Shown here: piece by piece, positions 13,624 to 57,449 of the stretch
Position numbering within the stretch: the first letter of the stretch is position 1
Layout of the letters: every line of letters starts with the position of its first letter
Source: Candidatus Zhuqueibacterota bacterium
GTDB taxonomy: Bacteria; Zhuqueibacterota; Zhuqueibacteria; Thermofontimicrobiales; Thermofontimicrobiaceae
Reading direction: 5' to 3'
Assembly: GCA_034506395.1 (NCBI GenBank)
Contig: JAPDPQ010000001.1
Span: 4,435-68,434 of the forward strand
Length of the DNA stretch: 64,000 nucleotides
Made by a program: the position numbers and the translations under genes
The notes under the pieces: generated by a model
Told to the model about the DNA's origin: nothing
Seen by the model: the letters and a program-made list of their open reading frames with translations, nothing else
Database searches by the model: none

Positions 13624-14628
13624 ATTGATGTGTTCCTGAGTTCGCTCGACTTGATGGAACGCATCCTGTTGTGACCTAACACAAAATCAAAAAAGTTCTT
13701 TCGATGAATTGAATGGGGGACAAGATGAATTGAAATGGCTCAAGGCTGCAACTTTCTTAATTTTCGCTTGGGCACCTTCTTCTTGTACCCTCTTTCTGAC
13801 ATCTTCAATTTACGATCGAATGATTTCTTTCATGAACGCAATGGCAAAATTAGTAGCTCTGAAAAATTTAAATTGCATCCCTGGCATGATCTATGCCCCA
13901 AAGAAAGCTTCATCCTCATCAAATGGCCATTGTCTTCAATTTAATATTGATCGATCATTTTGACTGAGCATTCAATCGTAAAAAGTGATATTCAAAAAGA
14001 ATTTTTCTGCCTGCATAATCTATCTGTGAAAATCAATTTATTGAGCATCTATTGGGTTTTGATCGTCACGACCCATTTGAAAATTTCTAATGAAGCAGCC
14101 TTATTTATCGCCCACAGCTTTTATGGCCCGAACATCAAAATTTGGAATTTAACCTTATTGGCTTATTTCTTGGCTGTTTGAAGATTTTGATCTCCATCCT
14201 CGATATGATAGTCAGCTTTCGAAAACAAAAATAAGGTGCTTTGATTTCACCCGACATGCTATAGCTTCTCCATGTTGCGGATTTGCTTTATCCAGCCACT
14301 AACAATTTTAGGCAGCCAAAGCGCATTTTATCCTATTTCTGGGGAAATCAGCCGAGCAGAGGATTCTGAGAGTAGACACTTTTGGCTCTAGATCCGATTA
14401 GCTTGAAACATTGGGGCGAATGGATGAGCTTCATTGATTTTGATAAATAGCATGCTGAGAATTGCATCCATTGACATGGAATCAACATTGAAAACAATTT
14501 CTGCTGAAGATCTCTCCTCCTTAAAAATTTCAATTTTTCTCGCCCACGGCTGAGTCAAATTATGTGGATATGTGAAGATATGTTTCAATCCTACAAAGCA
14601 GGTGCTAATAATTAGCTGGCAACCAAAG

Positions 14629-15642: not shown

Positions 15643-17262
15643 ATGAAAAATTTTCTCCTCGTTGCCCTGGTACTCATGTTTTCACAACTTTTCTCTCCCC
15701 AAACAATTTTTTCCTGTACCAATTATTTGATCACCAAAGGTGCCGCTGTCGATGGCTCGACCATGATCACCTATGCCGCTGATTCGCATGAGCTCTATGG
15801 TGAATTATATTTCACGCCTGCTGCCGATCATCTTCCTGGCACGCTGCTCGATATTTACGAATGGGACACGGGCAAATTTTTAGGCCGGATCAAACAGGTG
15901 GCTCACACATATGCGGTTGTAGGCAACATGAACGAACATCAGGTCTCTATTGGGGAAACAACCTGGGGTGGTCGCGAGGAATTGAAGGATCCAAAAGCCA
16001 TCATGGATTACGGGAGTTTGATGTACATTGCCCTGCAGCGCGCAAAAACCGCCCGCGAAGCCATCAAAGTGATCGCGGATCTCGTTGCTGAGTATGGCTA
16101 CTATAGCTCGGGCGAATCGTTCTCTATCGCCGATCCCAATGAGGTCTGGATCATGGAGATCATCAGCAAAGGACCGAACAACAAAGGGGCGGTCTGGGTC
16201 GCTCGTAAGGTGCCCGATGGCTACATTTGCGCTCACGCCAACCAAGCTCGCATTCGGCAATTTCCATTGAATGATAAAGAGAACTGCCTTTATTCCCCTG
16301 ATGTGATCTCCTTTGCGCGCGAAAAGGGCTATTTTACAGGCGAGGACAAAGATTTCAGTTTTGCAGACGCTTACGCCCCCCTGGATTATAGTGCCTTGCG
16401 ATTCTGCGAAGCGCGAGTATGGAGCATGTTCCGACGTGCAGCCCCATCGTTGAACCTGTCGATCGATTACGTAAAGGGAGTGAAAGGCGCTGAGCCATTG
16501 CCATTATGGATTAAGCCTGATAAAAAACTTTCAGTCCACGATGTTATGGAATTGATGCGCGATCATTTTGAAGGAACCGAATTCGACATGACCAAAGATG
16601 TGGGGGCAGGGCCCTTTCAGCTTCCATACCGCTGGCGTCCGCTCACTTGGAAGGTCGATACCGTTACCTATTGTAACGAACGCGCAGTTTCGACTCAGCA
16701 GACCGGCTTTTCTTTTGTAGCCCAAGCGCGCTCGTGGTTGCCAGACCCAATCGGCGGCGTATTGTGGTTCGGCGTCGATGATACCTATAGCACAGTCTAT
16801 GTTCCCATGTATTGTGGAATTAAACAAGTCCCTCATAGCTTTGCAGTAGGCACTGGATCATTCGATGAATTTAGCTGGGAATCGGCTTTCTGGGTGTTCA
16901 ATTTCGTGGCCAACTATGCATATTCCCGATACAGCGATATGATCAAGGATATCCAAAAGGTGCAGCGTGAGCTGGAGGGAAAATTTTTCGCCGATCAATC
17001 GGAAATCGAAGCTGCTGCGCTGGCGTTATACAAACAATCGCCACAACTGGCCCGAGATTATTTGACCGAATATTCGGTAAAGCAAGGCGATGCCACGGTC
17101 CAGCGCTGGAAAAAATTGGGCGAATTCCTCCTGTATAAATATCTCGATGGAAATGTGAAAAATGAGCTGGGAAAAGTCACCCATCCCGGCTATCCTGAAT
17201 CCTGGTATCGCCGCATCGTTAACGAAACTGGCGAACATTTTAAAATGAAATCACTGCAATGA
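15643..17262 (+). CDS. Secreted C69-family dipeptidase
   Basis: Signal peptide, then the nucleophile Cys in FSCTNYLITKGAAVDGSTMITYAADS, which is typical of the mature N-terminus of peptidase family C69. Confidence 0.8.
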   Translation: MKNFLLVALVLMFSQLFSPQTIFSCTNYLITKGAAVDGSTMITYAADSHELYGELYFTPAADHLPGTLLDIYEWDTGKFLGRIKQVAHTYAVVGNMNEHQVSIGETTWGGREELKDPKAIMDYGSLMYIALQRAKTAREAIKVIADLVAEYGYYSSGESFSIADPNEVWIMEIISKGPNNKGAVWVARKVPDGYICAHANQARIRQFPLNDKENCLYSPDVISFAREKGYFTGEDKDFSFADAYAPLDYSALRFCEARVWSMFRRAAPSLNLSIDYVKGVKGAEPLPLWIKPDKKLSVHDVMELMRDHFEGTEFDMTKDVGAGPFQLPYRWRPLTWKVDTVTYCNERAVSTQQTGFSFVAQARSWLPDPIGGVLWFGVDDTYSTVYVPMYCGIKQVPHSFAVGTGSFDEFSWESAFWVFNFVANYAYSRYSDMIKDIQKVQRELEGKFFADQSEIEAAALALYKQSPQLARDYLTEYSVKQGDATVQRWKKLGEFLLYKYLDGNVKNELGKVTHPGYPESWYRRIVNETGEHFKMKSLQ

Positions 17263-41733: not shown

Positions 41734-43947
41734 CTATTCCTCCCCAATTTCTTTTCCCAGAAAATTGCGAAACCAGAATTGAACATTCTCTCGCGTAGAA
41801 TGATTTCGCTTTGTCCCGCCAACACCATGTCGAGCATTTGGATAGAGCATCAATTCAAAATCTTTATCAAGGTCCTGAAGTTTGCTGATAAGCTGAATGG
41901 TATTTTGCATGTGAACGTTATCATCCATGGTCCCGTGTGTGATCAAAAGATGTCCTTTGTATTTATCGGCGTGAGTGAGCACTGAACCAAATTCGTAGCC
42001 CTGAGGATTTTCGTCAGGCCGGTCCATGTAGCGTTCCGTATAAACGCTATCGTACAATCGCCAATCGACCACAGAATATTCGGCAATTCCATGGGTGAAG
42101 TAGTCCGCACCATAGGTCAACGCCATGCATGTGGTGTAACCGCCATAGCTTCCCCCGGCGATACCGATACGATTGGGATCAATAAAAGGCTGGCTGCGCA
42201 ACCATTTTGCCGCCTCGATGAGATCATTCATCTCCCATTTCCCCAGATTGCGATGCATCAGCGCCACTCCTTTTTTTCCGAAATGACCTGAGCCACGATG
42301 ATCGACGCTGATCATGATGATGCCATGTTGCGCAAAATAGTGCCATCTCAACGATGGGAACGAATTCGACACAGTAGCGGCGGCCGGACCGCCATAGATC
42401 TGAAACAGAACTGGGTAACGCTGAGAAGGATCGAAATTCGGTGGCAAGACCCAAATAGCGGGTAAATCATAGCCATCGCCGGATGGGATGCTAAATAATT
42501 CCACCTTGCCCAGATCATATTCGTCAAGTAGAGGTGTCCTTTCGGTCCCGAGCGTACGGATGATTTTTCCTTCGGTATCGCAGAGATCGAGTTGGCTCGG
42601 ATGATGAATACTTTGATGCCGATCGATAAAATATTTTCCGCCCGGCGCAACTTGGCATCGGTGGCTGCCAGGGGTTTTTGTGAGTCGCTTCAAATTTTTA
42701 CCTTTTAAATCGACGACATAAAGATGGTTTTCGGTGGAGCGCTCTTTTGACCCATGGAAATAGACTAGATCATTCGCCTCGTCCACCAGCGCTATATCAT
42801 TCACATTCCACTCACCGCTGGTCAGCCGCTGTTTCAATTGACCATCCAAGTCGTGATAATAAAGATGTGCCCAACCGTCTTTATTCGAGCGAAGCAACAT
42901 CCCTCTGCCGTCTTTGAATAAATAGAGATCCTCAAAAAACTCAACCCAGCTATCCTGATGCTCTTGATAAATCAGCTTGATTTGACCGGTATTGGGATCA
43001 GCCGAGTAGATAATCAATTGATCCTGCCCACGATTCATCCATTGAAACAATAATTGTTTGCTATCTGGCGTCCAAAACGGCCAGGCCACATAGTGATCCG
43101 CCCGCTCATCGAGATCGACCCAGACCAGCTTGTTCTGATCGAGATGATAAATTCCCAGCCGGACATAAGGATTTGGATCGCCTGCTTTGGGATAGCGAGT
43201 GATCTCAAGTTCGCCATGCACACCATCAGCCCGATAGAGCGGGAAAGTCGGTACAGGGCTATCATCGAATCGCAGGAACGCGATCATGTTGCTATTCGGC
43301 GCCCACCAGAATGCTGCATAGCGCGAGGCTCGGCCTAAGATCTCTTCATAATACACCCAAGAGGCATAACCATTGTAGACCGTCTCGGACCCATCACAGG
43401 TCAGTTGGCGCTCAAGCCCGCTCTCCAGGTCCAATGCGTAAAGGTTATTTTGTCGCGTATAGGCAACATAGCGCCCGTTGGGCGAAAACTTCCCATTTTT
43501 CTCTGGAGCTGGTGTGGCAGTGATCTGTCTGAAGATTCGTTTCAAAGGAGAATAATAATAAAGATCATTTTCAGAGTTGAAGAGAAAACCGCTGTAATCC
43601 TCCAAACGATCTTCAAAGCTTTGCAACGAAAATCCCTCTGACAGGAGATCCTTGTGCTTCTCCTCGTCAAAATAAATCGATGACTCTCCAGTGCGGGCAT
43701 TGACTCGCAGCACCTTCCGAGTCGCTTTTGGACCTGTTCCAACTATTTGCCACTCCAGGTAATGTTTCTCATCCAGCCATCCAACGATCATGGGCAAATT
43801 TCCCAACAATTTTGGCTCAGCTCCTTTGAACACCTGGTTGAACGTGAGTCGCTTTTTTTGTGCCCAATTGTCCGAATAGGTCATTCCAAGTAATGAAAAA
43901 GTAACGAGCCAGAAAATAATCTTACCAAATCTCCCTTCCATGGTCAC
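41734..43947 (-). CDS. Secreted S9-family dipeptidyl-peptidase IV (DPP-IV-like)
   Basis: Signal peptide, a beta-propeller half, and a C-terminal alpha/beta hydrolase with IGIAGGSYGGY (GxSxGG nucleophile elbow), plus D..H later in the sequence. Confidence 0.85.
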   Translation of the reverse strand: MTMEGRFGKIIFWLVTFSLLGMTYSDNWAQKKRLTFNQVFKGAEPKLLGNLPMIVGWLDEKHYLEWQIVGTGPKATRKVLRVNARTGESSIYFDEEKHKDLLSEGFSLQSFEDRLEDYSGFLFNSENDLYYYSPLKRIFRQITATPAPEKNGKFSPNGRYVAYTRQNNLYALDLESGLERQLTCDGSETVYNGYASWVYYEEILGRASRYAAFWWAPNSNMIAFLRFDDSPVPTFPLYRADGVHGELEITRYPKAGDPNPYVRLGIYHLDQNKLVWVDLDERADHYVAWPFWTPDSKQLLFQWMNRGQDQLIIYSADPNTGQIKLIYQEHQDSWVEFFEDLYLFKDGRGMLLRSNKDGWAHLYYHDLDGQLKQRLTSGEWNVNDIALVDEANDLVYFHGSKERSTENHLYVVDLKGKNLKRLTKTPGSHRCQVAPGGKYFIDRHQSIHHPSQLDLCDTEGKIIRTLGTERTPLLDEYDLGKVELFSIPSGDGYDLPAIWVLPPNFDPSQRYPVLFQIYGGPAAATVSNSFPSLRWHYFAQHGIIMISVDHRGSGHFGKKGVALMHRNLGKWEMNDLIEAAKWLRSQPFIDPNRIGIAGGSYGGYTTCMALTYGADYFTHGIAEYSVVDWRLYDSVYTERYMDRPDENPQGYEFGSVLTHADKYKGHLLITHGTMDDNVHMQNTIQLISKLQDLDKDFELMLYPNARHGVGGTKRNHSTRENVQFWFRNFLGKEIGEE

Positions 43948-46752: not shown

Positions 46753-47757
46753 TTAGATCATGTTTAGGGTTTTGAGGAGAAAGATGCCCAAGGAGATAGT
46801 AATGATCGATCCAAGGGTGGTCATGACGATGATGTTGCCGGCCAATTCGCTATTGCAGCCCATTGCTTCCGCCATAACAAAGCTGACGATGGCGGAGGGG
46901 GTGGCGAACAAGAGAAATACCACCCCCAGGTCCTGACCAGAAAGACCCAATCGAAAGCCCAGCACTGCGATGGTTGCAGGGATAATGACGATTTTCAAAA
47001 TGGTAGCGACCGCCGCCAATCGCGCATCTTTTTTGATTTGCTCAAAATCCAATGAACCGCCGATCCCGAGCAGCGCCAGGGGCAATGTAATAGCCGCCAG
47101 GCTATTGATGGTTGTGATCAAAAACTGAGGTAACTCGATGTCGAAATACGAAAATGGCAGGGCGATGATGGTCGCAAGGATAAGTGGGTTGGTGAAAATT
47201 TCGGACAACATCTGCTGGAGCGTCAACTGTTTGTCGGCCCGGATCGGTACCGTCAATGCGATGATTGCCAGAATGTTATAGAGTGGCATGACGAACGCCA
47301 ACAAAATGGCCGCCTTACTCAGCGCTGCCGGACCAAACATGTTAGCGATCAGGGCAAAACCGATAATTGCAAAATTGCTGCGAAAACTGCCTTGAATAAA
47401 TGAAGCGCGATCCCGACCATTATTTGACAACCCCAGAGAGATCAGCCAGCTCAATGCAAAAAAAAAGAGCACACTGAGATAAACAAACAGGATCAGCTTT
47501 AGGCTGAAAGTCATTTTCAAATCGGTGCGCGAAAGGCTCTCGAATACCAGTGCTGGGGCGGCAACGGTGAACACGATTTTCGAAGAGATGCTCACAAAAT
47601 TGCCATTGATTAACCCCTTTTTCTTCAATCCATATCCCAAAAAAATAATCAAGAATACCGGGGCCACCCCATTGAATGAGAAAATCAGATTTTGCATCGA
47701 AGGTTCTCTATTTCTCTCAAGGATTTTCATCGCGACAGATCGGTTGAAAATCCTCAT
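46753..47757 (-). CDS. AEC-family (auxin efflux carrier) transporter
   Basis: About 10 TM segments. GVAPVFLIIFLGYGLKK at the N-terminus is typical of AEC/malonate-type permeases. ATG 47757 overlaps the upstream stop (ATGA); ATG 47697 is an alternative start. Confidence 0.75.
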   Translation of the reverse strand: MRIFNRSVAMKILERNREPSMQNLIFSFNGVAPVFLIIFLGYGLKKKGLINGNFVSISSKIVFTVAAPALVFESLSRTDLKMTFSLKLILFVYLSVLFFFALSWLISLGLSNNGRDRASFIQGSFRSNFAIIGFALIANMFGPAALSKAAILLAFVMPLYNILAIIALTVPIRADKQLTLQQMLSEIFTNPLILATIIALPFSYFDIELPQFLITTINSLAAITLPLALLGIGGSLDFEQIKKDARLAAVATILKIVIIPATIAVLGFRLGLSGQDLGVVFLLFATPSAIVSFVMAEAMGCNSELAGNIIVMTTLGSIITISLGIFLLKTLNMI

Positions 47758-48833
47758 TGTAAAATATTCTGTTTTTGCTCCAAATAATAAATATAATTCT
47801 CGAAAGAGACATCGGAGGGCACACGATGATCGACCATCGGGATATAGCCTCCCTGGTCTACCAGCGGAGCAATTCGCTCCAGCTCCCGATCGATGGCTTC
47901 TTTGCCTTTGATCAATGCTGTTTTATCCACACCGCCCATTAATAATATCGCATTGCCATATCGCTGTCGCAGCAGAACCGGATCGGTATGGAGCGCCTCG
48001 ATCGGAAACATGCAATTGATCCCTGCCTCCAACCAACCAGGCACTAACTCATATATACAGCCATCGCAGTCAAGCACATTAATATCGACGCCATATTTTT
48101 GCAGCGCTGCCGTAACCCGTTTATAGCGTGGCACCATCAGTTCCTGAAACAGCTTGGGCGAAATCAACGGCCCGCGATTATAACACATATCCTCCCACCA
48201 CCAGGCCATATCGACTCGAATTCCTGGGAGACTTTGCTCGATCAGCTGCAGTGTCAATTGGGTCAGATGCTCCATCATCTCTTCCACCCAGTCGCGATCA
48301 GTCATGATCGCAATAGACAGGTTTTCCATCCCCATCCAGTTTCGGAGAACGCCATAAAGGGAGCCGGCATCGAATCGGATTGGCATCCCGATCGCATGAG
48401 CTTCCACCACGGCTGCTCGAACATCTCCGATTCGCTCAGCGAAATTCGGATCGAGATGCTCAGTTCGATAGCGTTCCCAATCTTCCCGGGTCTCAATACC
48501 GAATTTCAGATAGCGAGGGATGGTCTCACCAAATTTTGGTGACTGACAGATGATCCCTTCTTCATTTTGATAGACCCTGTAGTCGGCTCCTTCCTCTAAT
48601 ACACGGTAGTCGAACCGCGGACAAAGGCCATTTTTAGCAGGTAGCCAGGGGATAATCTCTACGCCCTCCAACCCCAAATATCGTTCGACATCTTGGTTCG
48701 TTTTCACATGAACTGGCAGACCTTGCGTATGCCATTTCTCGATCGTCTCATCCCAATAGCCGAATTCCATATTAGGAACGCGATCTGGCTTTTGCCAGTG
48801 CATCACTCTATAAAAACGTTCTTGGGTCGTCAT
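47754..48833 (-). CDS. Uroporphyrinogen-decarboxylase (URO-D) family protein, MtaA/CmuA-like branch, function unknown
   Basis: 359 aa with overall URO-D-like TIM-barrel pattern (RFYRVMHWQKPDRVP.., ..DMAWWWEDMCYNRGPLISP.., ..NVLDCDGC..). The family call is from memory of such 'URO-D like' proteins. Confidence 0.6.
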   Translation of the reverse strand: MTTQERFYRVMHWQKPDRVPNMEFGYWDETIEKWHTQGLPVHVKTNQDVERYLGLEGVEIIPWLPAKNGLCPRFDYRVLEEGADYRVYQNEEGIICQSPKFGETIPRYLKFGIETREDWERYRTEHLDPNFAERIGDVRAAVVEAHAIGMPIRFDAGSLYGVLRNWMGMENLSIAIMTDRDWVEEMMEHLTQLTLQLIEQSLPGIRVDMAWWWEDMCYNRGPLISPKLFQELMVPRYKRVTAALQKYGVDINVLDCDGCIYELVPGWLEAGINCMFPIEALHTDPVLLRQRYGNAILLMGGVDKTALIKGKEAIDRELERIAPLVDQGGYIPMVDHRVPSDVSFENYIYYLEQKQNILQ

Positions 48834-49224
48834 TTTCGTCTCCAGTCATTGGTTTGACTTTAGCCGTCTGCAAGATTCCAAAATGCTACCCTGGGAATGT
48901 AGACACATCTGAATTTGCCGTTCAAAAAAATTAACGATGATCTTGCATTCGGAGCAATGTTTGGATCGATTTGAATCGCTTAATATAGTGCTCTCGCCCT
49001 AAAATAGCAAGCAAAACTTTCTGTTTGATCCAAGCCATATGAGACAAAAGTTTTCCTTGAAATTTTGGTTTTTTTTCTTAAATTGAATCTATAAGCATAT
49101 CGATCTCGATAAACTGCTCTCCATTTTTATGATGAGCAGAACTTTTTGCAATCTCAAGGAATGATAGATCGAAATATTAGGATTGGAGCAATAGAACGAA
49201 TCGTCAAAATAGGAGCGAATATCA

Positions 49225-51588
49225 GTGACGCCGAGAGTTGAGAAATTAAGAAGACAAAGCCTGGAGACTCCGACATCGATTACAGCAGAGCGAGCGGTTT
49301 TAATCACCGAATTCTATCGATCGCATGATGCATTGACTATCTCAGCGCCGATGCGCCGGGCATTGGCGTTCAAATATCTGATGGAACATAAAGCCGTTTG
49401 CATCAACGATGGTGAGTTGATCGTTGGCGAGCGCGGACCGGCTCCTCGGTCAACCCCAACATTCCCAGAGATCTGCTGCCATACGATTGAGGAGCTTGAG
49501 ATCCTCAATTCGAGGGAAAAAGTGAGCTACGCGGTCTCTGAAGAAACCAAGCGGATTTATCGCGAGCAAATTATTCCCTATTGGAAGGGAAAGACTATTC
49601 GGGAAAAGATCTTTGAGGAGATGACCGATGAGTGGAAAGCGGCCTATCGCGCTGGGATTTTTACCGAGTTCATGGAGCAACGCGCTCCTGGTCATACAGC
49701 ATTAGATGACAAAATTTACTTGAAAGGCTTTTTGGGATTTAAGAAAGAGATCGAAGAGCAACTGAGTCGATTGGATTATCTAAACGATCCGGAAGCGTAC
49801 GAGAAGCAGGAACAGCTCAAAGCCATGGCCATTGCTGCGGATGCCATCATTCGCTATGCCGAACGACATGCCGAACTCGCCCAACAAATGGCCCGCAAAG
49901 AATCTGATCCAGTCAGGAAACGCGAACTTGAGCAAATTGCAGAAATCTGCGCCTATGTCCCAGCCAATCCGCCACGAACCTTCTGGGAGGCGCTGCAGGC
50001 GTACTGGTTCACCCATGTTGGGGTGATTTCGGAATTAAACACCTGGGACGCCATCTGCCCTGGCCGATTCGATCAGCATTTTTATCCGTTTTACAAAAAG
50101 GACATTGAGTCTGGTCTATTGTCTCGAGAGGCCGCTAAGGAGCTTCTGCAATGCTTCTGGATCAAATTCAACAATCAGCCCGCCCCTCCAAAGGTGGGCG
50201 TCACTGCTCAGGAGAGCGGGACTTATAACGATTTTGCGCTGATTTCGCTGGCCGGACAAACGCGCGATGGAAAAGACGGTGCCAACGAGCTCTCCTATTT
50301 ATGCCTCGATGTATTGGAGGAATTGCGGCTGGTGCAGCCCCACTGTTGCGTTCAATTGAGCCAGCAAAATCCCGATCGCCTGCTGAAGCGTGCGCTCGAG
50401 GTCAATCGCACTGGTCTGGGTCAACCCTCGATCTTCAATCATGACGCCGTGGTCCAGGAGCTTATTCGCCAGGGCAAATCTATCGAAGACGCGAGGACCG
50501 GCGGCACCAGTGGGTGTGTGGAGACCGGGGCATTGGGCAAGGAAAATTACAATCTCACCGGCTACTTTAATATGATGAAAGTGCTGGAAATCACGCTCCA
50601 CAATGGCGTCGATCCCCGTACTGGAGAAAAGATCGGGATCGAAACCGGGGATCCCACTCGATTTGAAAATTTTGAGCAATTATTCGAGGCTTATAAAAGA
50701 CAGCTTCGGCACTTCATCGACATTAAGATCCGAGGCAATAACATCATCGAAAAAATCTATGCGCAATATATGCCCACGCCGTTTCTTTCATTGTTGATTA
50801 GCGATTGCATTCAACGTGGTAAAGATTATCACAATGGCGGAGCGCGCTACAATACAAGCTACATCCAGGGCGTTGGTTTGGGCAGCATTACGGACGCCAT
50901 GAGCTCATTGAAATATCATGTTTACGATCATCGCAAGCTCACCATGGAGCAGATGCTCAGCGTCCTTAAAGATAATTATGAGGGCCATGAAAGGATTCGG
51001 CAGATGATGCGCTATCAGACACCCAAGTACGGCAATGACGATGATTATGCCGATGAGATTATGAAGCGGGTATTTGAAGCCTACTTTGAAGCGATCGATG
51101 GCAGGAAAAATATGAAAGGAGGAACTTATCGCATCAACTTGCTCCCGACGACGGTTCATGTCTACTTTGGCTCAGTGGTGGGAGCAACTCCCGATGGTCG
51201 AAAGGCAGGAGACGTACTCTCTGAAGGGGTGTCTCCAGTTCAGGGGGCGGATCGAAACGGTCCAACAGCAGTGATTAAATCGGTAGCCAAAATCGATCAT
51301 TTACGCACGGGCGGCACTTTGCTGAATCAGAAATTTTCACCTTCGCTACTGAGCAGCGATAACGGACTCGCTGGACTCGCCCATTTGGTACGATCTTATT
51401 TTAAAATGAACGGACATCACATCCAATTTAATGTGGTGACCGCTGCTACGCTCCGAGCGGCTCAGCAGCACCCAGAGAAGTATCGCGACCTGATCGTTCG
51501 GGTGGCAGGATATAGCGATTATTTCTGCAACTTGAATAAAGGCCTGCAGGATGAGATCATCGCCAGGACCGAACATCAAAGCTTTTAG
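49225..51588 (+). CDS. Glycyl radical enzyme of the dehydratase/eliminase (GCVE) clade; substrate unknown
   Basis: 787 aa. Glycyl radical motif LIVRVAGYSDYF (Gly762, codon 51508-51510). Thiyl loop GTSGCVETG (Cys431-x-Glu433, 50515-50523). N-terminal PFL-like fold motifs (INDGELIVGERG, FTEFMEQRAPGH). GTG start. Confidence 0.9.
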   Translation: MTPRVEKLRRQSLETPTSITAERAVLITEFYRSHDALTISAPMRRALAFKYLMEHKAVCINDGELIVGERGPAPRSTPTFPEICCHTIEELEILNSREKVSYAVSEETKRIYREQIIPYWKGKTIREKIFEEMTDEWKAAYRAGIFTEFMEQRAPGHTALDDKIYLKGFLGFKKEIEEQLSRLDYLNDPEAYEKQEQLKAMAIAADAIIRYAERHAELAQQMARKESDPVRKRELEQIAEICAYVPANPPRTFWEALQAYWFTHVGVISELNTWDAICPGRFDQHFYPFYKKDIESGLLSREAAKELLQCFWIKFNNQPAPPKVGVTAQESGTYNDFALISLAGQTRDGKDGANELSYLCLDVLEELRLVQPHCCVQLSQQNPDRLLKRALEVNRTGLGQPSIFNHDAVVQELIRQGKSIEDARTGGTSGCVETGALGKENYNLTGYFNMMKVLEITLHNGVDPRTGEKIGIETGDPTRFENFEQLFEAYKRQLRHFIDIKIRGNNIIEKIYAQYMPTPFLSLLISDCIQRGKDYHNGGARYNTSYIQGVGLGSITDAMSSLKYHVYDHRKLTMEQMLSVLKDNYEGHERIRQMMRYQTPKYGNDDDYADEIMKRVFEAYFEAIDGRKNMKGGTYRINLLPTTVHVYFGSVVGATPDGRKAGDVLSEGVSPVQGADRNGPTAVIKSVAKIDHLRTGGTLLNQKFSPSLLSSDNGLAGLAHLVRSYFKMNGHHIQFNVVTAATLRAAQQHPEKYRDLIVRVAGYSDYFCNLNKGLQDEIIARTEHQSF

Positions 51589-51741: not shown

Positions 51742-52842
51742 TCATTGGTAATAGACCACGATGGCCTTGATCAGCCCAAACAATTTTTTATGAAGTTCCC
51801 ATGGGATACCATCGACTGACATAGCTGGGTGGCCAAGTTTGCCGTCAACGGCGATTCCAGTTTGAAAATAGCTCTCGATGAGTTTCGTTTCCGCAGCTTC
51901 ATCGAAAAGCTCGAGAAACTCATCGGCTCGATTCAGACAGAGATATAACCCAGCGATCAGTGCATAAGCTGCCCAATTGGACACTCCGGCCACGATAGTC
52001 GCATCGGCTGCCACGCGACAGGCAAATTTGCCCGCGTGGGCTGAGGCGATGTTGCACGCAATAACACGCCATGGAATGGAACCCATGCCGATTTCATTTC
52101 CTCCATCACCAATGCCAATCGTAAAAATCGGTTTCGAGGCGATCGTTTTGTTCTCGAATAACAGATGAATGGGGGCTGTGTCCTGACCAACCGGAAGGCC
52201 GTTCATCGTGAAGGGCTCGCCTTGCGATTCGCCCGGCCCTTGGGAAAGAAACCTGTTGAAATTGGATTCATCTGATAAATTTTCTTGCTTGGAGAACGAT
52301 TCGAGGGTATGGCTGGGTCCCACCCGTTCGATCGCGATCAAACAGCTCAGACGGTCATGGTTCAAGAAGAAATTTCGAACTTCTTCCATCATCATGTTGT
52401 TGTTGGCATATCGAATATCTTGTGCAGCCACATGATCGGACCGCGACCATTGAGAAGGGAATTCGATCAATTCACAATGATCCAGTTGATTGGCATAAAG
52501 GTGAACTCCCTGTGCCAGCAAGGGGAGGCCATAACGATCACTGATGAGCAAGACAGGGTATCCCAGCCGATTCAATCCTCGGGCCAGAAATAATGCACCA
52601 GGTGGGCCATCGTTCTCTGGCGCTGGTGGCTGTACATTCGGAATAAAAAAACCTGTCACAATGCCCACCTCATTGCCAGGATGCTCGATCAGAAATTGGA
52701 TCGCTTTCGCCAAATGACCTTGGGTCCTGGTACAGAGATTATCCTCTGGGATTCGGTGAATTCCGCGGCACCCCACATCGGTTTGAATGAGCCATTCCAA
52801 TTGCGCAAGCTGCTGCATTTTTATTTGGTCAGAAATTTTCAT
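51742..52842 (-). CDS. DUF4392 (D-glutamate cyclase-like) domain protein
   Basis: 366 aa with ..IVTGFFIP.., ..ERVGPS.. and ..IGIGDGGNEIGMG.. blocks, which I associate with the DUF4392 / glutamate cyclase domain. Moderate confidence only. Confidence 0.5.
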   Translation of the reverse strand: MKISDQIKMQQLAQLEWLIQTDVGCRGIHRIPEDNLCTRTQGHLAKAIQFLIEHPGNEVGIVTGFFIPNVQPPAPENDGPPGALFLARGLNRLGYPVLLISDRYGLPLLAQGVHLYANQLDHCELIEFPSQWSRSDHVAAQDIRYANNNMMMEEVRNFFLNHDRLSCLIAIERVGPSHTLESFSKQENLSDESNFNRFLSQGPGESQGEPFTMNGLPVGQDTAPIHLLFENKTIASKPIFTIGIGDGGNEIGMGSIPWRVIACNIASAHAGKFACRVAADATIVAGVSNWAAYALIAGLYLCLNRADEFLELFDEAAETKLIESYFQTGIAVDGKLGHPAMSVDGIPWELHKKLFGLIKAIVVYYQ

Positions 52843-52916: not shown

Positions 52917-55900
52917 TTATCTTGCAATCACCATTTTTCGCGTGAGCCGTTCAGTCGGCGTAATTAAACTATAAAAATAGATACCGCTCACAACACTCTC
53001 TCCCAGATCATCCCTTCCATCCCAATAGATTGTGTAAAAACCAGCTTTATGAAACTCATCAACCAGCGTCTTGATCTTTCGCCCCAGCACGTTGCTAATC
53101 ATGATTTTCACCTGACCATCGGTTGGGATCTCATATTTGATCGAAGTCTGGGTGTTAAAAGGATTGGGATAATTTTGCCATAGCATGAATTTTTCTGGTT
53201 TGGGCGCTGTAAGAGCAATGACGTTGTGAAATTTTTTCTTGCCGGTCAAGCTCAACTGTTCCAATTTGTAAAAATAGGTTTTTCCCGCCTCAGCGGTGCG
53301 ATCCTGAAACGAATAATGCTCCTTTCCCGTGATGAGCTGATCGGTGAGCCGGGTGAAGTCCTTGTTGGGTGATTCGCTGCGATAAAGATGAAACCCTGCA
53401 CAATTGGTTTCATAGCTAATGATCCAAAAAAGATCAATGGTGGCATCGCTATTGATGCGGCCGAAGAAATTATCGAGCTGGGCAAATTGCGGATAATAAG
53501 AACAAGCCAAATTGCACTTTCGAAATCCAGATTGATAACCATTACTTGTCAACAACTTGACACGCCAGTAAAACGGTCGATCAATGCTGATCCGCTCAAA
53601 CCCGATCAATTGATTCAAGTTGATCCTCTTCGTTCGGCAGGTGTCGGTACTGATCAATTTTGAAAATGTGCTGTCCCAGCTGAGCTGAATCACATATCGG
53701 CACTTCGTGAGATCAATGTCCTGCGAAAGTAACGAATCATTTTCCCAAATGAATAGATCTTCCTCGTGAATTCGACCTCCTTGAATTGGGAAGATCAACC
53801 GAGGGGCAGGTAACTGGATTTGTTTGGCTGGATGAATCACCCAATGGTGCATGACTGTGGTATCGCGACCTTCGACAACGAGCCATACAGTATCACTCAT
53901 TGAAATGGCTGAATTGACACGATAACAAAAACTGCTGTCCTGGCCGATTTTCATAAGCTGCTGACCGATCGACCAACGATATTGAAGAACATCGCGATCT
54001 CCTTCGCGCACCCCAACCGAAAGGGTGAGGCTATCTGGTGGAGTAATTGAGAGTTCCTCTTCCTTGGGGTAAAATGCCAATCGGAATGGGCGAGCTTCCA
54101 GCATCTTGGCCTTTTGGATATACCAGCGATGAACGATCGCGCTATCTCCATGTTCGATCAGCACTGTAATTGTATCGATTTTCGAATCGCGAAAGACAGG
54201 ATGATAGACGAAAATCGAGTCCTGGGCTGAGGAGTCGATCTGATGATTAACTTTCCATCGAAACCGAAAGTCATTCTTGGCATGGCGAACCAGAAAGACC
54301 AAACTATCGCTCAAAACTACTACCGAATCCTGGGGCAGATAGTGAATTTTTTTGCTCTCGGCGATGGAATCGAGCGGGCTGGGCCATAAGATCCATTGCA
54401 AATAAATGGCAGTATCGGCATCGGTGATACTGAGCCTCAGGGTATCGACAGTTGAACGATTTTCGGTGCAGCTAAAAACATATTGGTGCTGGCGGGCTGA
54501 GCGATCGATCAGGCCATTGAGTGACCAACTATATCGCAAACTGTCATGATCCGGATCCTGGCACAGCACTTGAAATTGAATGCTATCGCTTTTGACGATG
54601 AACGAATCAAGCGGGGGAGAACAATACCGGATTTGAGGTGCTCGATTTGGCCGCACTTTTGTGCTTACAATCCAGCGATGCGTCATGGAGCTATCCTGAT
54701 CCGCAATTTCGACTACAATCGTATCTAGGACTGTCGATTTATCCCCTTTGATAAATTTGTAGCTTGGCTCAACGGCAATGTTATCTTTCTTGCCATTGAT
54801 CAACCAACGCCAGTGATATTTCCCTCTCGCAACAGAATCAGCTAAAACCGATAGGATCAGAGTATCCCCAAATGCAATAGTCGTGTCAGATTGGGGCAGA
54901 AATCGCAAATCATTCAGGAGCCGGCGCGCCACGATCAAATCTACGATCCATTGATGTCTTAAGGTGGTATCTGAGGCAATAATGGTCACTGCAATAACAT
55001 TCTTGCCGGAGACGAGGGAATCGGAGGGGATCAATACCCAAGGATTTATGCTTGGTGCAAAAATTCTCTCATTAACCTGCCAGCGAAAAGAGAGCGAATC
55101 GACATCGGACGAGAACGTTTGTATTGAACATTTGAGCCGATCACCTATCCTTATGGTTGTATCTGATTTGGGGAATGTCCCAACAATAGCGATCTTGTTG
55201 GCGCTTTTCTGAGGCCACAAAATCCAGGAATGAATCAGAGTAGTGTCTTCATCAAAATGTCTGATTTTTACCGTGATGGTATCATTGGGTTTCTGTTCGA
55301 ACTGGTATGATTGAAAGGCAATTCGATTCGAATCATTCGAAATGGGCTTTCTATTCAACAGCCATTGAAATGAATATTTTTCTGAATCAATTGGCACGAC
55401 AGCAAAAGATATCGACGCCCCTTTTAAGATTGATGTATCTTGGGAGGGAAAAAATTGGAATAGGGATCGCAGCTCGGGATGAACAAACACAACATTGGAT
55501 CTTGTGATTTCATGAGCGACCGAATCAAAAGCAGAGATATAATACCAGTAGCGCTGATTCGGATTGGTGTTGACGTCTGTGAAAAGAGTATCCGAAGCCG
55601 GGAATTGAGAGATGGGTCGAAACGATCGCTGATGCTCCTCTTTTCGGAAGAGACAATAGCCCGCAAACTCAGGATCGCCAGTCCACTGCAAACTTGGAGG
55701 AAATCGATTAACGATTGTTAAACTGGGTGGTTGGATAATTCGGTTTATGAACGTAAACTCTTTCTCACAACGAAAACCCTCTTGTGTTGATATTTCGAGC
55801 ACAAGTCTGGCTTTATAGCCATGCGGACAATCGCCATTCATCGTTAATATCATCGGCGCCAATTCGTTGGTGAATTCCTGATTGTATTCCAATACAGGAA

Positions 55901-57449
55901 GAGTCACGTTCGAATTTTCGATGGCGACTTGAAGATCGCGGCTGAAGAGTTGCATCGATATCCCATGGGCAGTTGAAGAGAGATTTTTGATCTTGAACCA
56001 GATTGGAACCGAAAGACAATTTGATTTATGATCTTTTTCGCCAGATAGATCAAACTGGATTTGTCGAACGACGATATTCGGCAGGAATTGGGAATTGACC
56101 GCACGGAAGAAATTGATTCTCCCAGCTCCCAGTTGGCCATAATAACCAGAGTTTTTCTGATAAATATTGTCACTGCTCCATAGAATTCTTTTCTTCAAGC
56201 TGTCGGTGGTGATGATTTTTTCATTGGACAACAATATCCCAGCTAAGCAAGTGACATGGGCAGCGGCGATGGATGTGGGTGAAGGCCAATATTTAATCGA
56301 ATCTGTTGCACTGATGGATGCGAAAAGCTGAGCAGGGGCAGCCAGATCGATCCAGGGCCCGAAATTGCCGGATGAAATTTTTTGGTCATATTGATCTGTT
56401 GCCGTGACTGACCAGACCTCAGGAAAGGCGGCTGGATAAGCCGGCGCTTGGGCAAAATAATCTCCAGCAGCAGAGATGATCACCACATCGCGCTTGGCAG
56501 CGTATCGGATTGCGTGGTGAAGCAATCGAGAGGAATCTTCTCCAGCCCAACTCAAACATATAACTCGAGCGCCGTGATTAGCCGCGTAGACGATCGCTTG
56601 GGCTGCTGCAGCAGCGGGTACCAAGATTTTGCCTTGTCGCGTCAACAAACCTGCTTTCAACGCCATCAGCGTCAATCGACCTCCTGAGCGAAAACTCGTC
56701 CAATTAAGCAGCGGCTGCATGATCATTCTTGCCAGAGAAGTTCCGTGTCCTGACTCGTCAATGGATTGATTGGTCCAATCGATCCCGTATCGGACCATCA
56801 TTTCCCTGGGCACAAAATTCCAGCCACAAAGATCATCAACCAGGCCATTGCCATCATTATCTTTTCCATCAGCCTTTTCTAGCCGGTTATGCCAGAGAAT
56901 TTCGCTCAAATGGGGATCGGTCTGATCGACCCCAGCATCGATACTGGCAATTGTCAGCGAATATTTTGGGCTCAGCTTTTCTAACAGATCGATTGTTTGC
57001 ATTTCCAACGGCATAACGATCGGCGGATTCGTCGTCACTTCCGCATAATAAAAATAATTGTAATCGACCCAATCAACATCTTTTAATTTTTCATAACTGC
57101 TCCTGATCCTCGAGGCCGCGATCCCGTTGGAAAATCGCAACAAATAACAGCGATCCAGAGGATTTCCATTAATCGGTCCTCTGCTGAACAACGGAATTAT
57201 CTCTTTTAACCGATAAATCGCGTTAAGAGAATCTAATTGAAAAACTCCAGTCAAAAATGGCGACTTGCTCAGATTGATTTTCAATGGAGACTTCAATCGA
57301 ATAATGAGTTCGTTACGCGCATATTGCTCTGATATTACGGAAGGCTGAGCATAAACGACTTGCGGAACGATAAAAAGTTGGCGGGGCGCTAAGATGGAAA
57401 TACTCAGCACAATAAATCCAGCTATAATTTTTATACCAACCTTCTTCAT
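52917..57449 (-). CDS. Secreted S8 (subtilisin-family) serine peptidase, 1510 aa, with two Fn3-like modules, six tandem Ig-like repeats and a T9SS-type C-terminal sorting domain
   Basis: Signal peptide and I9-like propeptide. Catalytic blocks SIDAGVD (Asp), GHGTSLA (His), SPTSIAAAHV (Ser). C-terminal LWQNYPNPFN..IYFYSL..MVIAR (aa 1422-1510, nt 52920-53186) is the NYPNPFN-type sorting/FlgD-Ig-like domain. Confidence 0.85.
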   Translation of the reverse strand: MKKVGIKIIAGFIVLSISILAPRQLFIVPQVVYAQPSVISEQYARNELIIRLKSPLKINLSKSPFLTGVFQLDSLNAIYRLKEIIPLFSRGPINGNPLDRCYLLRFSNGIAASRIRSSYEKLKDVDWVDYNYFYYAEVTTNPPIVMPLEMQTIDLLEKLSPKYSLTIASIDAGVDQTDPHLSEILWHNRLEKADGKDNDGNGLVDDLCGWNFVPREMMVRYGIDWTNQSIDESGHGTSLARMIMQPLLNWTSFRSGGRLTLMALKAGLLTRQGKILVPAAAAAQAIVYAANHGARVICLSWAGEDSSRLLHHAIRYAAKRDVVIISAAGDYFAQAPAYPAAFPEVWSVTATDQYDQKISSGNFGPWIDLAAPAQLFASISATDSIKYWPSPTSIAAAHVTCLAGILLSNEKIITTDSLKKRILWSSDNIYQKNSGYYGQLGAGRINFFRAVNSQFLPNIVVRQIQFDLSGEKDHKSNCLSVPIWFKIKNLSSTAHGISMQLFSRDLQVAIENSNVTLPVLEYNQEFTNELAPMILTMNGDCPHGYKARLVLEISTQEGFRCEKEFTFINRIIQPPSLTIVNRFPPSLQWTGDPEFAGYCLFRKEEHQRSFRPISQFPASDTLFTDVNTNPNQRYWYYISAFDSVAHEITRSNVVFVHPELRSLFQFFPSQDTSILKGASISFAVVPIDSEKYSFQWLLNRKPISNDSNRIAFQSYQFEQKPNDTITVKIRHFDEDTTLIHSWILWPQKSANKIAIVGTFPKSDTTIRIGDRLKCSIQTFSSDVDSLSFRWQVNERIFAPSINPWVLIPSDSLVSGKNVIAVTIIASDTTLRHQWIVDLIVARRLLNDLRFLPQSDTTIAFGDTLILSVLADSVARGKYHWRWLINGKKDNIAVEPSYKFIKGDKSTVLDTIVVEIADQDSSMTHRWIVSTKVRPNRAPQIRYCSPPLDSFIVKSDSIQFQVLCQDPDHDSLRYSWSLNGLIDRSARQHQYVFSCTENRSTVDTLRLSITDADTAIYLQWILWPSPLDSIAESKKIHYLPQDSVVVLSDSLVFLVRHAKNDFRFRWKVNHQIDSSAQDSIFVYHPVFRDSKIDTITVLIEHGDSAIVHRWYIQKAKMLEARPFRLAFYPKEEELSITPPDSLTLSVGVREGDRDVLQYRWSIGQQLMKIGQDSSFCYRVNSAISMSDTVWLVVEGRDTTVMHHWVIHPAKQIQLPAPRLIFPIQGGRIHEEDLFIWENDSLLSQDIDLTKCRYVIQLSWDSTFSKLISTDTCRTKRINLNQLIGFERISIDRPFYWRVKLLTSNGYQSGFRKCNLACSYYPQFAQLDNFFGRINSDATIDLFWIISYETNCAGFHLYRSESPNKDFTRLTDQLITGKEHYSFQDRTAEAGKTYFYKLEQLSLTGKKKFHNVIALTAPKPEKFMLWQNYPNPFNTQTSIKYEIPTDGQVKIMISNVLGRKIKTLVDEFHKAGFYTIYWDGRDDLGESVVSGIYFYSLITPTERLTRKMVIAR
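53832..55463 (-). repeat. Six tandem ~85-105-aa coding repeats inside the S8 peptidase (aa ~663-1206)
   Basis: Each unit contains [FY]x[FWY][RQS]W.[LVI][NG] (YSFQWLLN, LSFRWQVN, YHWRWLIN, LRYSWSLN, FRFRWKVN, LQYRWSIG). Each ends D[TS]..[HQ].W[IVY] (LIHSWILWP, LRHQWIV, MTHRWIV, IYLQWILWP, IVHRWYI, VMHHWVIHP). Confidence 0.8.

What the first reader, a model, noticed from the sequence alone, without database searches (positions are those of the whole stretch)
49225..51588. Orphan glycyl radical enzyme (GCVE eliminase clade) with no activating enzyme in the window, in a peptidase-rich neighbourhood
Seen: a 787-aa GRE has an intact RVAGYS glycine loop and a GCVETG thiyl loop (Cys431-x-Glu433). No ORF with a radical-SAM CxxxCxxC motif is present anywhere in the 64 kb. 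The flanking genes are a URO-D-like/AEC pair (divergent) and a DUF4392 protein (convergent). Established knowledge: GREs require a dedicated radical-SAM activase that is almost always adjacent. The Cys-x-Glu loop is shared by the 1,2-eliminating GREs (glycerol/propanediol dehydratases, choline TMA-lyase, trans-4-hydroxy-L-proline dehydratase HypD, isethionate sulfite-lyase), in contrast to the Cys-Cys of pyruvate formate-lyase. Inference: the size and several motif blocks (PEICCHT, FTEFMEQRAPGH, QPAPPKVG, YGNDDDYAD) remind me most of the HypD/glycerol-dehydratase group. A hydroxyproline-type substrate would fit the nearby secreted DPP-IV (releases X-Pro dipeptides), C69 dipeptidase and giant S8 protease. 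I cannot verify substrate-binding residues by eye, and the unusual neighbours leave room for a new specificity.
Basis: partly seen in the sequence, partly recalled or inferred. Interest (0 to 1): 0.65.

Follow-up and report, generated by a model that had tools for sequence, protein, structure and literature searches.

The report
Hydroxyproline dehydratase with unlinked activase
The gene is an ordinary, clearly functional copy of the known anaerobic enzyme that dehydrates hydroxyproline (HypD), from an uncultured KSB1 bacterium; its only oddity is that its activating partner gene lies somewhere else in the genome instead of next door.

Summary
A 787-aa glycyl radical enzyme (GRE) lies at 49225-51588(+) with intact RVAGYS and GCVE loops. 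There is no activase in the window, nor in about 14 kb of extra flank recovered from sister assemblies.

The enzyme is not of unknown specificity. It passes NCBIfam's trans-4-hydroxy-L-proline dehydratase (HypD) equivalog model (1321 bits, cutoff 1100). It is 56% identical to the crystallised C. difficile HypD, and all 15 published catalytic and pocket residues are identical.

The source is a candidate division KSB1 bacterium. In 80 species-representative relatives, 62 have the activase directly upstream. Fifteen do not, and these are scattered across the tree. Four KSB1-lineage genomes (83-100% identical HypD) all lack it, while the next relative (76%) has it.

Within the activase-less lineage hypD has dN/dS of 0.03-0.04 at near-saturated dS. 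The Gly loop is unchanged and the radical domain is not accelerated. The enzyme is therefore in use and must be activated in trans. The activase itself was not located.

The URO-D-like, AEC and DUF4392 neighbours are lineage-specific synteny (0 of 80 in both reciprocal censuses). Proline-specific peptidases do recur next to hypD in other phyla, which supports a peptide-salvage role.

Verdict: a new member of a known family with a minority gene order. Low interest.

The parts
49225..51588 (+). hypD: trans-4-hydroxy-L-proline dehydratase (glycyl radical enzyme), 787 aa
   Evidence: NF043068 equivalog 1321.5 bits against a cutoff of 1100. PDB 6VXC 1074 bits, 56% identity over 779 aa with one gap. 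dN/dS 0.028 against the 91% relative.
49211..49215 (+). Shine-Dalgarno AGGAG, 9 nt before the GTG start
   Evidence: Read directly from the sequence. NCBI and other gene callers use the same 787-aa product.
48834..49224 (.). 391-bp divergent intergenic region, at the position where relatives carry the activase gene; no activase relic
   Evidence: The activase HMM gives no hit in six-frame segments of 30 aa or more. There are no Rfam matches. Two weak promoter-like sites lie at 49057-49084 and 49106-49133, not above chance.
49660..49695 (+). FTEFMEQRAPGH block carrying Phe149, Arg153 and His157 (C. difficile Phe152, Arg156, His160)
   Evidence: Residue mapping. Roles are from PMC7077986.
50044..50049 (+). 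Trp274-Asp275 (C. difficile Trp277, Asp278). The Asp is the proposed catalytic acid/base and is HypD-specific
50215..50235 (+). Ser331 to Phe337 segment (C. difficile Ser334, Asp339, Phe340): carboxylate anchor, water-mediated Asp, proline-aromatic Phe
50512..50523 (+). Cys loop GCVE (thiyl Cys431, Glu433)
51499..51516 (+). Gly loop RVAGYS (radical Gly762)
   Evidence: The 12-mer IVRVAGYSDYFC is the majority form in the family, 71 of 87 sequences.
47754..48833 (-). URO-D-like protein of unknown function, divergent from hypD. Syntenic neighbour in the KSB1 lineage only
   Evidence: Pfam URO-D 45 bits over the C-terminal half. Conserved next to hypD in L088-L090. None of 80 family loci elsewhere carries a HypD.
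46753..47757 (-). AEC-family (Mem_trans) transporter, overlapping the URO-D-like gene by 4 bp
   Evidence: Pfam PF03547 110 bits. Not found next to HypD or the URO-D-like gene outside this lineage.
51742..52842 (-). DUF4392 / D-glutamate cyclase-like C-terminal domain protein, convergent with hypD. Not conserved beyond the 91% relative
   Evidence: Pfam PF14336 185 bits. Present in L088 and absent at this position in L089 and L090.
41734..43947 (-). DPP-IV-type prolyl dipeptidyl peptidase (S9B) with a signal-like N-terminus. Plausible upstream supplier of X-Pro and X-Hyp dipeptides
   Evidence: Pfam DPPIV_N 308 bits plus Peptidase_S9 178 bits. Homologues lie next to hypD in 4 of 80 loci from other phyla. 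N-terminus read.
52917..57449 (-). 1510-aa secreted S8 subtilase with a T9SS-type C-terminal tail
   Evidence: Pfam Peptidase_S8. Por_Secre_tail and FlgD_ig hits are faint or weak. Termini read.
15643..17262 (+). C69 dipeptidase with a signal-like N-terminus. It is 32 kb from hypD, so any link is weak
   Evidence: Pfam Peptidase_C69 307 bits. One relative, L042, has hypD-M24-C69.

Best explanation
This is a functional trans-4-hydroxy-L-proline dehydratase (HypD) of a candidate division KSB1 bacterium.

Once a radical-SAM activase has installed a radical on Gly762, the radical passes to Cys431. The thiyl radical abstracts a hydrogen from C5 of hydroxyproline, water is eliminated with help from Asp275, His157 and Glu433, and the product is delta-1-pyrroline-5-carboxylate (P5C).

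In the ancestor of this small lineage the activase gene, which sits directly upstream of hypD in most relatives, became unlinked. The enzyme is now activated in trans by an activase encoded elsewhere in the genome. That activase is most likely a relocated HypD-type one, because the recognition loop and the radical domain are unchanged.

The likely physiological role is salvage of hydroxyproline released from exported peptidase activity (S8, then DPP-IV, then dipeptidase).

Shown here: family membership, pocket identity, absence of an activase over about 78 kb, a lineage-wide arrangement, and strong purifying selection. Inferred: the existence and type of the trans activase, the substrate supply route, and the fate of P5C.
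For: Identity:
- NCBIfam glycl_HYPD equivalog scores 1321.5 bits (cutoff 1100). The next model, a subfamily, scores 729, and every other equivalog model falls far below its cutoff.
- PDB 6VXC (C. difficile HypD) scores 1074 bits against 597 for glycerol dehydratase and about 488 for the N-methyl-Hyp dehydratases 8ID1 and 8IOF.
- All 15 residues named in PMC7077986 are identical. They include the HypD-specific Asp278 and Asp339, and Ser334 where other eliminases have Phe.
- Those residues are invariant in 80 of the 82 aligned sequences; L040 alone differs, at Arg153 and Gly762.

Function retained without an adjacent activase:
- Four genomes with 83-100% identical HypD all lack the activase.
- dN/dS is 0.028 (dS 1.65) and 0.042 (dS 1.07) within that lineage.
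- AE-linked and AE-less relatives violate family-invariant columns at the same rate, 0.53 each.

The arrangement is real:
- It is reproduced in NCBI MAGs, a Logan assembly and a separate metagenome assembly with a 922-kb contig.

Trans-activation has precedent:
- E. coli PflA activates TdcE, which shares its Gly loop (PMC13450708 section 2.5).
- The radical-domain/rest identity ratio is 1.10, against 1.075 +/- 0.06 among AE-linked pairs. The Gly-loop 12-mer is the family-majority form.

Peptide link:
- An M24 Xaa-Pro peptidase lies near hypD in 10 of 80 loci, DPP-IV in 4 of 80 and C69 in 1 of 80, all in other phyla.
- The 76% relative reads activase-hypD-M24.
Against: - The activase was not found. 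Only about 78 kb of a multi-megabase genome could be inspected.
- A search seeded with the nearest relative's activase produced no KSB1-attributable hit among the 120 listed, and the two candidates I checked belong to other organisms.
- No P5C reductase or dehydrogenase was seen in the window.
- The lineage carries 23 private substitutions at positions that are at least 90% conserved in AE-linked relatives. Three are next to pocket residues: V159A, F277I and T335N. A shifted preference among hydroxyproline-like substrates is therefore not strictly excluded.
- No biochemical data exist for any KSB1 enzyme.
Confidence: 0.8

Rival explanations
1. Functional HypD, but activated by a non-cognate activase shared with another GRE system in the genome (for example a PFL or another eliminase), rather than by a relocated HypD-type activase.
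For: Shared activation exists: PflA activates both PFL and TdcE (PMC13450708). No HypD-type activase attributable to KSB1 appeared among the 120 closest homologues of the nearest relative's activase.
Against: Documented cross-activation is between GREs with the same Gly loop. The KSB1 Gly loop and radical domain remain canonical HypD and show no acceleration. Failure to find the gene among the 120 listed of 7951 scoring hits says little.
Confidence: 0.12
2. The enzyme has drifted to a related substrate, such as another hydroxyproline isomer or an N-methylated or otherwise modified hydroxyproline, and works with the conserved URO-D-like/AEC neighbours in a lineage-specific pathway.
For: The URO-D-like gene stays beside hypD in all four lineage genomes despite other rearrangements. 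The URO-D superfamily includes methyltransferases (weak MtaA-like hit, 24 bits). Three lineage-specific second-shell substitutions lie next to pocket residues. Sibling GREs for N-methyl-hydroxyprolines exist.
Against: All first-shell residues are identical, and the protein scores above the HypD equivalog cutoff. HpyG and HpzG score less than half as well. No corrinoid protein or MttB-type partner is nearby. The reciprocal censuses are 0 of 80 and 0 of 80. In L090 three unrelated genes separate the URO-D-like gene from hypD.
Confidence: 0.05
3. A decaying or silent relic: the activase was lost and hypD is no longer used.
For: No activase in about 78 kb. The window's HypD departs at 7 of 200 family-invariant columns, the second-highest count in the set.
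Against: dN/dS is 0.03-0.04 across near-saturated synonymous divergence in the activase-less lineage. The reading frame is intact in all assemblies with a good ribosome-binding site. The 7 changes are mostly conservative and fit the sequence being the most divergent ingroup member.
Confidence: 0.02
4. An assembly or binning artefact removed the activase.
For: All sources are metagenome-derived assemblies.
Against: The same junction (URO-D-like, 391-bp gap, hypD) is recovered in several independent assemblies and in diverged relatives at 91%, 84% and 83% identity.
Confidence: 0.01

Closest known systems
Trans-4-hydroxy-L-proline dehydratase HypD of Clostridioides difficile (PDB 6VXC/6VXE; Levin et al. 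2017; Backman et al. 2020, PMC7077986)
   Same: Same length class. 56% identity over 779 aa with one 1-residue gap. Identical Gly loop RVAGYSD, Cys loop GCVE, and all 15 catalytic, binding and contact residues. Passes the same NCBIfam equivalog model.
   Different: In C. difficile, hypD is flanked by its activase and by proC. Here neither lies within about 78 kb. The organism is an uncultured environmental KSB1 bacterium rather than a gut Firmicute. There are 23 lineage-private substitutions, three of them second-shell.
Environmental HypD loci of Anaerolineae, Aminicenantes, Gemmatimonadota and Planctomycetota (species-representative genomes, 64-71% identity), and the 76% relative L091
   Same: Same enzyme with the same invariant pocket. 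Some also sit beside proline-specific peptidases. Fifteen of 77 testable loci likewise lack an adjacent activase.
   Different: Sixty-two of 80 have the activase directly upstream on the same strand (61 by tblastn, typically ending a few tens of bp before hypD, plus L031 by HMM). None has the URO-D-like, AEC or DUF4392 neighbours.
E. coli TdcE and GrcA: GREs without their own activase, activated by PflA
   Same: A GRE gene that is not next to an activase gene and depends on one encoded elsewhere (PMC13450708; GrcA from my own knowledge).
   Different: Those are formate-lyase-type proteins sharing the PFL Gly loop RVSGYAV. Here the loop is the HypD type (RVAGYSD), and the trans partner has not been identified.
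N-methyl-hydroxyproline dehydratases HpyG (8ID1) and HpzG (8IOF), and glycerol dehydratase (1R8W)
   Same: CXE eliminase GREs. HpyG and HpzG also act on hydroxyproline-type rings.
   Different: Much weaker matches: 489, 487 and 597 bits against 1074 for HypD. The window protein keeps the HypD-specific residues instead.

Membership tests
Glycyl radical enzyme superfamily | PFL-like ten-stranded barrel domain plus a C-terminal glycine-radical domain | tested here: met
   PF02901 805 bits over residues 1-649; PF01228 131 bits over residues 666-768.
Glycyl radical enzyme superfamily | Conserved radical glycine in an RVxG[YF] loop and a thiyl cysteine on the Cys loop | tested here: met
   RVAGYS with Gly762; GCVE with Cys431.
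Glycyl radical enzyme superfamily | A radical-SAM activating enzyme encoded in the same genome | not testable with these tools
   Only about 78 kb of the genome was accessible and none is present there. The homologue search did not identify a KSB1 activase. Its presence is inferred from purifying selection.
GRE 1,2-eliminases | Cys-x-Glu motif on the Cys loop, rather than the Cys-Cys of PFL and TdcE | tested here: met
   Cys431-Val432-Glu433; definition.
HypD (trans-4-hydroxy-L-proline dehydratase) | Score above the curated equivalog threshold of NCBIfam NF043068 | tested here: met
   1321.5 bits against a cutoff of 1100, full length 4-785 aligned to 3-783 of 784.
HypD (trans-4-hydroxy-L-proline dehydratase) | HypD-specific acid/base residues Asp278 and Asp339 (strictly conserved in HypD and absent from other eliminases), plus His160 and Glu436 | tested here: met
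   Asp275, Asp336, His157 and Glu433; roles from PMC7077986.
HypD (trans-4-hydroxy-L-proline dehydratase) | Carboxylate-binding Ser334 (Phe in other eliminases), Tyr450 and Thr645; proline-aromatic Phe340; contacts Phe152 and Trp277; charge partners Arg156 and Lys326 | tested here: met
   Ser331, Tyr447, Thr642, Phe337, Phe149, Trp274, Arg153 and Lys323 are all identical. They are invariant in 81-82 of 82 relatives.
HypD (trans-4-hydroxy-L-proline dehydratase) | Cognate activase gene adjacent to hypD. This is the typical gene order, not a biochemical requirement | tested here: not met
   Absent here and in L088-L090. Present in 62 of 80 relatives and in L091.
HypD (trans-4-hydroxy-L-proline dehydratase) | Adjacent proC (P5C reductase), as in Clostridia. 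This feature is clade-specific | tested here: inconclusive
No P5CR-like Pfam domain was seen among the window ORFs.
HypD (trans-4-hydroxy-L-proline dehydratase) | Catalyses Hyp to P5C after activation | not testable with these tools
   Requires anaerobic biochemistry.
Other characterised GREs (CutC, HpsG/HpfG, PFL, indoleacetate and HPA decarboxylases) | Score above the respective NCBIfam equivalog cutoff | tested here: not met
   CutC 544 against 1050; HpsG 605 against 1000; HpfG 566 against 1000; PFL 133 against 994; indoleacetate decarboxylase 446 against 1100; HPA decarboxylase 374 against 1150.
GRE-activating enzymes (for the two radical-SAM genes just outside the window) | Match to TIGR02494, NF043069 or the HypD-activase profile | tested here: not met
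   L084 14275-15444 is HemW (TIGR00539, 315 bits against a cutoff of 205). L087 448-1365 best matches the PTO1314 family (127 bits) and NirJ-like models, with no activase model among the 25 listed of 41 matching families. A true neighbour activase (L004) scores 397 and 377 bits. The activase HMM gives no hits.

The most novel reading that the evidence does not exclude
In this KSB1 lineage the loss of the linked activase marks a real change in how or on what the enzyme works. One possibility is that HypD is serviced by a single 'generalist' activase shared among different GREs, which would widen the known rules of GRE-activase specificity. The other is that, together with the co-inherited URO-D-like/AEC pair and the three second-shell substitutions, it processes a modified hydroxyproline in a pathway not yet described.
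Probability: 0.07. Interest if true: 0.5.

Novelty: new member of a known kind. Interest (0 to 1): 0.2.

Why it matters
- **Distribution.** It adds candidate division KSB1 to the lineages with a confidently assigned anaerobic hydroxyproline dehydratase. NCBI currently labels the protein only as 'glycyl radical protein'. This fits the picture of these uncultured bacteria as degraders of detrital protein.
- **Annotation practice.** About one in five environmental hypD genes has no adjacent activase (15 of 77 testable loci), yet they show no sign of decay. 'Orphan' GREs should therefore not be read as either novel or dead.
- **Limits.** It does not change what is known about GRE chemistry.

Tried and rejected
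1. **Locating the trans activase.**
   - A search seeded with the nearest relative's activase gave 7951 hits, of which 120 were listed. None was attributable to KSB1.
   - The two most promising candidates (P0138, P0123) were activases beside their own GRE in other organisms. The result is inconclusive, not negative.
2. **Walking beyond the window.**
   - About 10 kb on the right and 4.5 kb on the left were recovered.
   - The two radical-SAM genes found there are HemW and a PTO1314/NirJ-like protein, not activases.
   - One anchor protein (1631-2155) was not on record with that start.
3. **A hidden alternative activase in AE-less relatives.** These loci share no gene other than hypD, and only scattered CxxxCxxC motifs occur, far from any N-terminus.
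4. **Functional coupling with the URO-D-like, AEC or DUF4392 genes.** Rejected by reciprocal censuses of 0 of 80 each. PDB searches for the two neighbours gave nothing informative: a spurious CpcJ hit, and the uncharacterised TON_0340.
5. **Riboswitch or other RNA upstream of hypD.** No Rfam match; only one tRNA in the whole window. The promoter and terminator scans were not above chance.
6. **Literature on the assemblies or on KSB1 GREs.** Nothing relevant was found.
7. **proC search.** The probe was recalled from memory and had no positive control, so its negative result carries little weight.
Full report
**1. The observation**

The ORF at 49225-51588(+) exists as described. It is 787 aa with a GTG start and an AGGAG 9 nt upstream. 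Pfam assigns PFL-like plus Gly_radical domains.

I tested the claim that no activase is in the window in four independent ways.
- No CxxxCxxC motif occurs in any six-frame stop-to-stop segment of 60 aa or more.
- tblastn with E. coli PflA gives no hit.
- No Radical_SAM domain occurs among about 42 ORFs of 150 aa or more scanned with Pfam.
- A profile HMM built from 56 bona fide HypD activases taken from related loci gives no hit at E<=10 in any frame. This includes the 391-bp gap upstream of hypD, where a relic would sit. The distant positive control, PflA, scores 212 bits against that profile.

The neighbours are as stated.

**2. What the enzyme is**

The protein scores 1321.5 bits against NCBIfam NF043068, the equivalog model for trans-4-hydroxy-L-proline dehydratase, whose trusted cutoff is 1100. 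All other equivalog models (CutC, sulfopropanediol dehydratases, PFL, the decarboxylases) fall far below their cutoffs.

Among solved structures the best match by a wide margin is C. difficile HypD (6VXC/6VXE) at 1074 bits. Glycerol dehydratase scores 597 bits. The N-methyl-hydroxyproline dehydratases HpyG (8ID1) and HpzG (8IOF) score about 488 (identities of the latter from PMC13450708). The alignment to C. difficile HypD is 56% identical over 779 residues with a single one-residue gap.

Backman et al. 2020 (PMC7077986) name 15 residues as catalytic, substrate-binding or contacting: Phe152, Arg156, His160, Trp277, Asp278, Lys326, Ser334, Asp339, Phe340, Cys434, Val435, Glu436, Tyr450, Thr645 and Gly765. 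All 15 are identical here, at native number minus 3. They include Asp278 and Asp339, which that paper describes as strictly conserved in HypD and absent from other eliminases. They also include Ser334, which replaces the Phe found in other eliminases.

Across 82 aligned sequences these 15 columns are invariant, apart from one odd sequence, L040. On sequence evidence the substrate is trans-4-hydroxy-L-proline and the product is P5C. The suggestion of a new specificity is not supported.

**3. Source organism and reality of the arrangement**

Exact-sequence look-ups place the gene in MAGs named 'candidate division KSB1 bacterium', where NCBI calls it only 'glycyl radical protein'. The same AEC / URO-D-like / hypD / DUF4392 / S8 order appears in several NCBI MAGs and in a Logan assembly, so it is not an assembly artefact.

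Using the outermost window genes as anchors, I read about 10 kb beyond the right edge and 4.5 kb beyond the left edge. Two radical-SAM genes lie there. One is HemW (TIGR00539, 315 bits, above its cutoff). The other is a PTO1314/NirJ-like protein. Neither matches any GRE-activase model or my activase profile. A genuine neighbour activase (L004) scores 397 bits to NF043069 and 377 bits to TIGR02494. The activase-free zone is therefore about 78 kb.

**4. How unusual an unlinked activase is**

A scan of species-representative genomes returned 80 HypD loci at 64-71% identity, mostly Anaerolineae/Chloroflexota, Aminicenantes, Gemmatimonadota and Planctomycetota.
- In 62 of them a PflA-like activase lies immediately upstream on the same strand (61 by tblastn, typically ending a few tens of bp before hypD, plus L031 by HMM).
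- Three loci have too little upstream sequence to judge.
- Fifteen have no activase anywhere in the held flanks.

Those 15 are scattered through a neighbour-joining tree, not clustered. They share no other gene. They break family-invariant columns no more often than AE-linked sequences do, at 0.53 each. Separation of hypD from its activase has therefore happened repeatedly and is a minority but ordinary arrangement.

**5. History in this lineage and evidence of function**

A protein search found a graded series of closer relatives.
- The 91% relative, on a 922-kb contig, is fully syntenic and lacks the activase.
- The 84% and 83% relatives also lack it and keep the URO-D-like gene upstream, although their other neighbours differ.
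- The 76% relative has the standard order of activase then hypD, followed by an AMP_N/M24 Xaa-Pro peptidase. Its activase scores 477 bits against my profile.

The unlinking therefore happened once, in the ancestor of a small lineage.

Within that lineage, Nei-Gojobori dN/dS for hypD is 0.028 (window against the 91% relative, dS 1.65) and 0.042 (84% against 83% relative, dS 1.07). More distant pairs are synonymously saturated, with pN/pS of 0.12-0.18. All pocket residues and the Gly loop are unchanged. A gene that could not be activated would not be held under such constraint, so an activase must act in trans.

The review PMC13450708 (section 2.5) notes that cross-activation is rare and tracks Gly-loop identity, as with PflA, PFL and TdcE. 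Here the Gly-loop 12-mer is the majority HypD form (71 of 87). The radical domain is no more diverged relative to the rest of the protein than in AE-linked pairs (ratio 1.10 against 1.075 +/- 0.06). That favours a relocated HypD-type activase over a foreign one, but this step is inference.

My attempt to find the gene failed. It used homologues of the nearest relative's activase, followed by a context check of the two best candidates.

**6. The neighbours**

The URO-D-like protein has only a weak Pfam match (45 bits over the C-terminal half) and no informative PDB relative. It is 75-87% conserved across the four lineage genomes.

None of the 80 HypD loci has a URO-D-like, AEC or DUF4392 homologue within 10 kb. 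Conversely, none of 80 metagenomic loci encoding URO-D-like relatives (43-75% identity) has a HypD, an activase or the AEC gene within 8 kb. That family mostly sits among its own paralogues. In the 83% relative, three unrelated genes separate it from hypD. I conclude the adjacency is inherited synteny, not a functional module, though a lineage-specific link cannot be excluded.

**7. The peptidase idea**

The window holds a DPP-IV-type S9 peptidase 5.3 kb upstream, a 1510-aa S8 subtilase 1.3 kb downstream and a C69 dipeptidase 32 kb away. All three have hydrophobic, signal-like N-termini, and the S8 has a T9SS-type tail. The rest of the window is housekeeping, so the local enrichment is modest.

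Independent comparative support does exist.
- Orthologues of the M24 Xaa-Pro peptidase lie within 7 kb downstream of hypD in 10 of 80 loci, and directly adjacent in four.
- DPP-IV homologues occur in 4 of 80 loci, directly adjacent in two Gemmatimonadota.
- One locus reads hypD-M24-C69.

A role in using hydroxyproline released from imported or periplasmically trimmed peptides is therefore reasonable. It remains an inference.

**8. Caveats**

- The lineage has 23 private substitutions at positions that are at least 90% conserved in AE-linked relatives. Three are beside pocket residues (V159A, F277I, T335N). The structure paper assigns them no role.
- The fate of P5C is unknown.

**9. Verdict**

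This is a confidently assignable HypD orthologue in a new, uncultured lineage, with a minority gene order in which the activase is unlinked. It is a new member of a known kind and of low interest. The one result that would change this is a demonstrated absence of any GRE activase from complete genomes of the lineage.

Noticed in passing
window 3470-11527 (+): A complete-looking bacterial microcompartment locus. It comprises an RpiB-DeoC fusion (3470-4876), a CsoS1D_N-type shell protein (5064-5693), BMC-H (6063-6383), EutN/CcmL pentamer proteins (6613-6912, 9799-10089, 10320-10592), a GNAT (7028-7594), an aldehyde dehydrogenase (7742-9187), a tandem-BMC shell protein (9189-9812) and a class II aldolase (10841-11527). 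From memory it resembles the sugar-phosphate-utilisation or PVM-like types. It lies about 40 kb from hypD. HypD has no N-terminal extension that could act as an encapsulation peptide, so no link is suggested.
   Followed up: partly
window 47754-48833 (-); loci L094-L173: The URO-D-like protein belongs to a widespread environmental family (more than 400 metagenomic relatives at 43-75% identity) of unknown function. The family often occurs in paralogous arrays, sometimes near an ABC-transporter ATPase. An LDCDGC motif is invariant in the four lineage copies. It has no informative PDB relative.
   Followed up: partly
L015, L018, L019, L022, L023, L025, L027, L029, L037, L053, L072, L076, L077, L079, L083: Fifteen of 77 testable species-representative HypD loci lack an adjacent activase. 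They are phylogenetically scattered, share no common neighbour and show no excess of changes at invariant columns. Unlinked activases are a recurrent feature of environmental hypD genes.
   Followed up: yes
L042 10001-15752; L056 and L069 about 10001-14629; L075 10001-18868; L091 410-5238: Recurrent hypD-peptidase gene orders occur in other phyla: hypD-M24-C69 (L042), hypD-DPP-IV (Gemmatimonadota L056 and L069), hypD followed a few kb downstream by DPP-IV and M24 (L075), and activase-hypD-M24 (L091).
   Followed up: partly
L040 1630-3984 (MAG labelled Ignavibacterium album): This HypD has Asp in place of the radical glycine (IVRVADYSDYFC) and Cys in place of Arg153, even though it has an adjacent activase. 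It is either an inactive copy or a sequencing or assembly error.
   Followed up: no
window 51742-52842 (-): The DUF4392 / D-glutamate cyclase-like protein is 366 aa. Its C-terminal 160 residues match the uncharacterised Thermococcus TON_0340 structures (87 bits). It is present next to hypD only in the window species and the 91% relative.
   Followed up: partly
window 49225-51588: There is an annotation gap. NCBI names this protein only 'glycyl radical protein' or 'formate C-acetyltransferase/glycerol dehydratase family', and JGI names its relatives 'formate C-acetyltransferase'. Yet it exceeds the trusted cutoff of the HypD equivalog model.
   Followed up: yes
window 52917-57449 (-): This 1510-aa S8 subtilase has a long repetitive middle region (many 'W-I/V-L/I-x-P' units that look like Ig-like repeats) and a T9SS-type C-terminal sorting domain. 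It is conserved at the same length in the 91% relative.
   Followed up: no
L091 200-397: In the 76% relative a small ThiS-like gene (65 aa) lies immediately upstream of the HypD activase. It was not seen in any of the 80 species-representative loci.
   Followed up: partly
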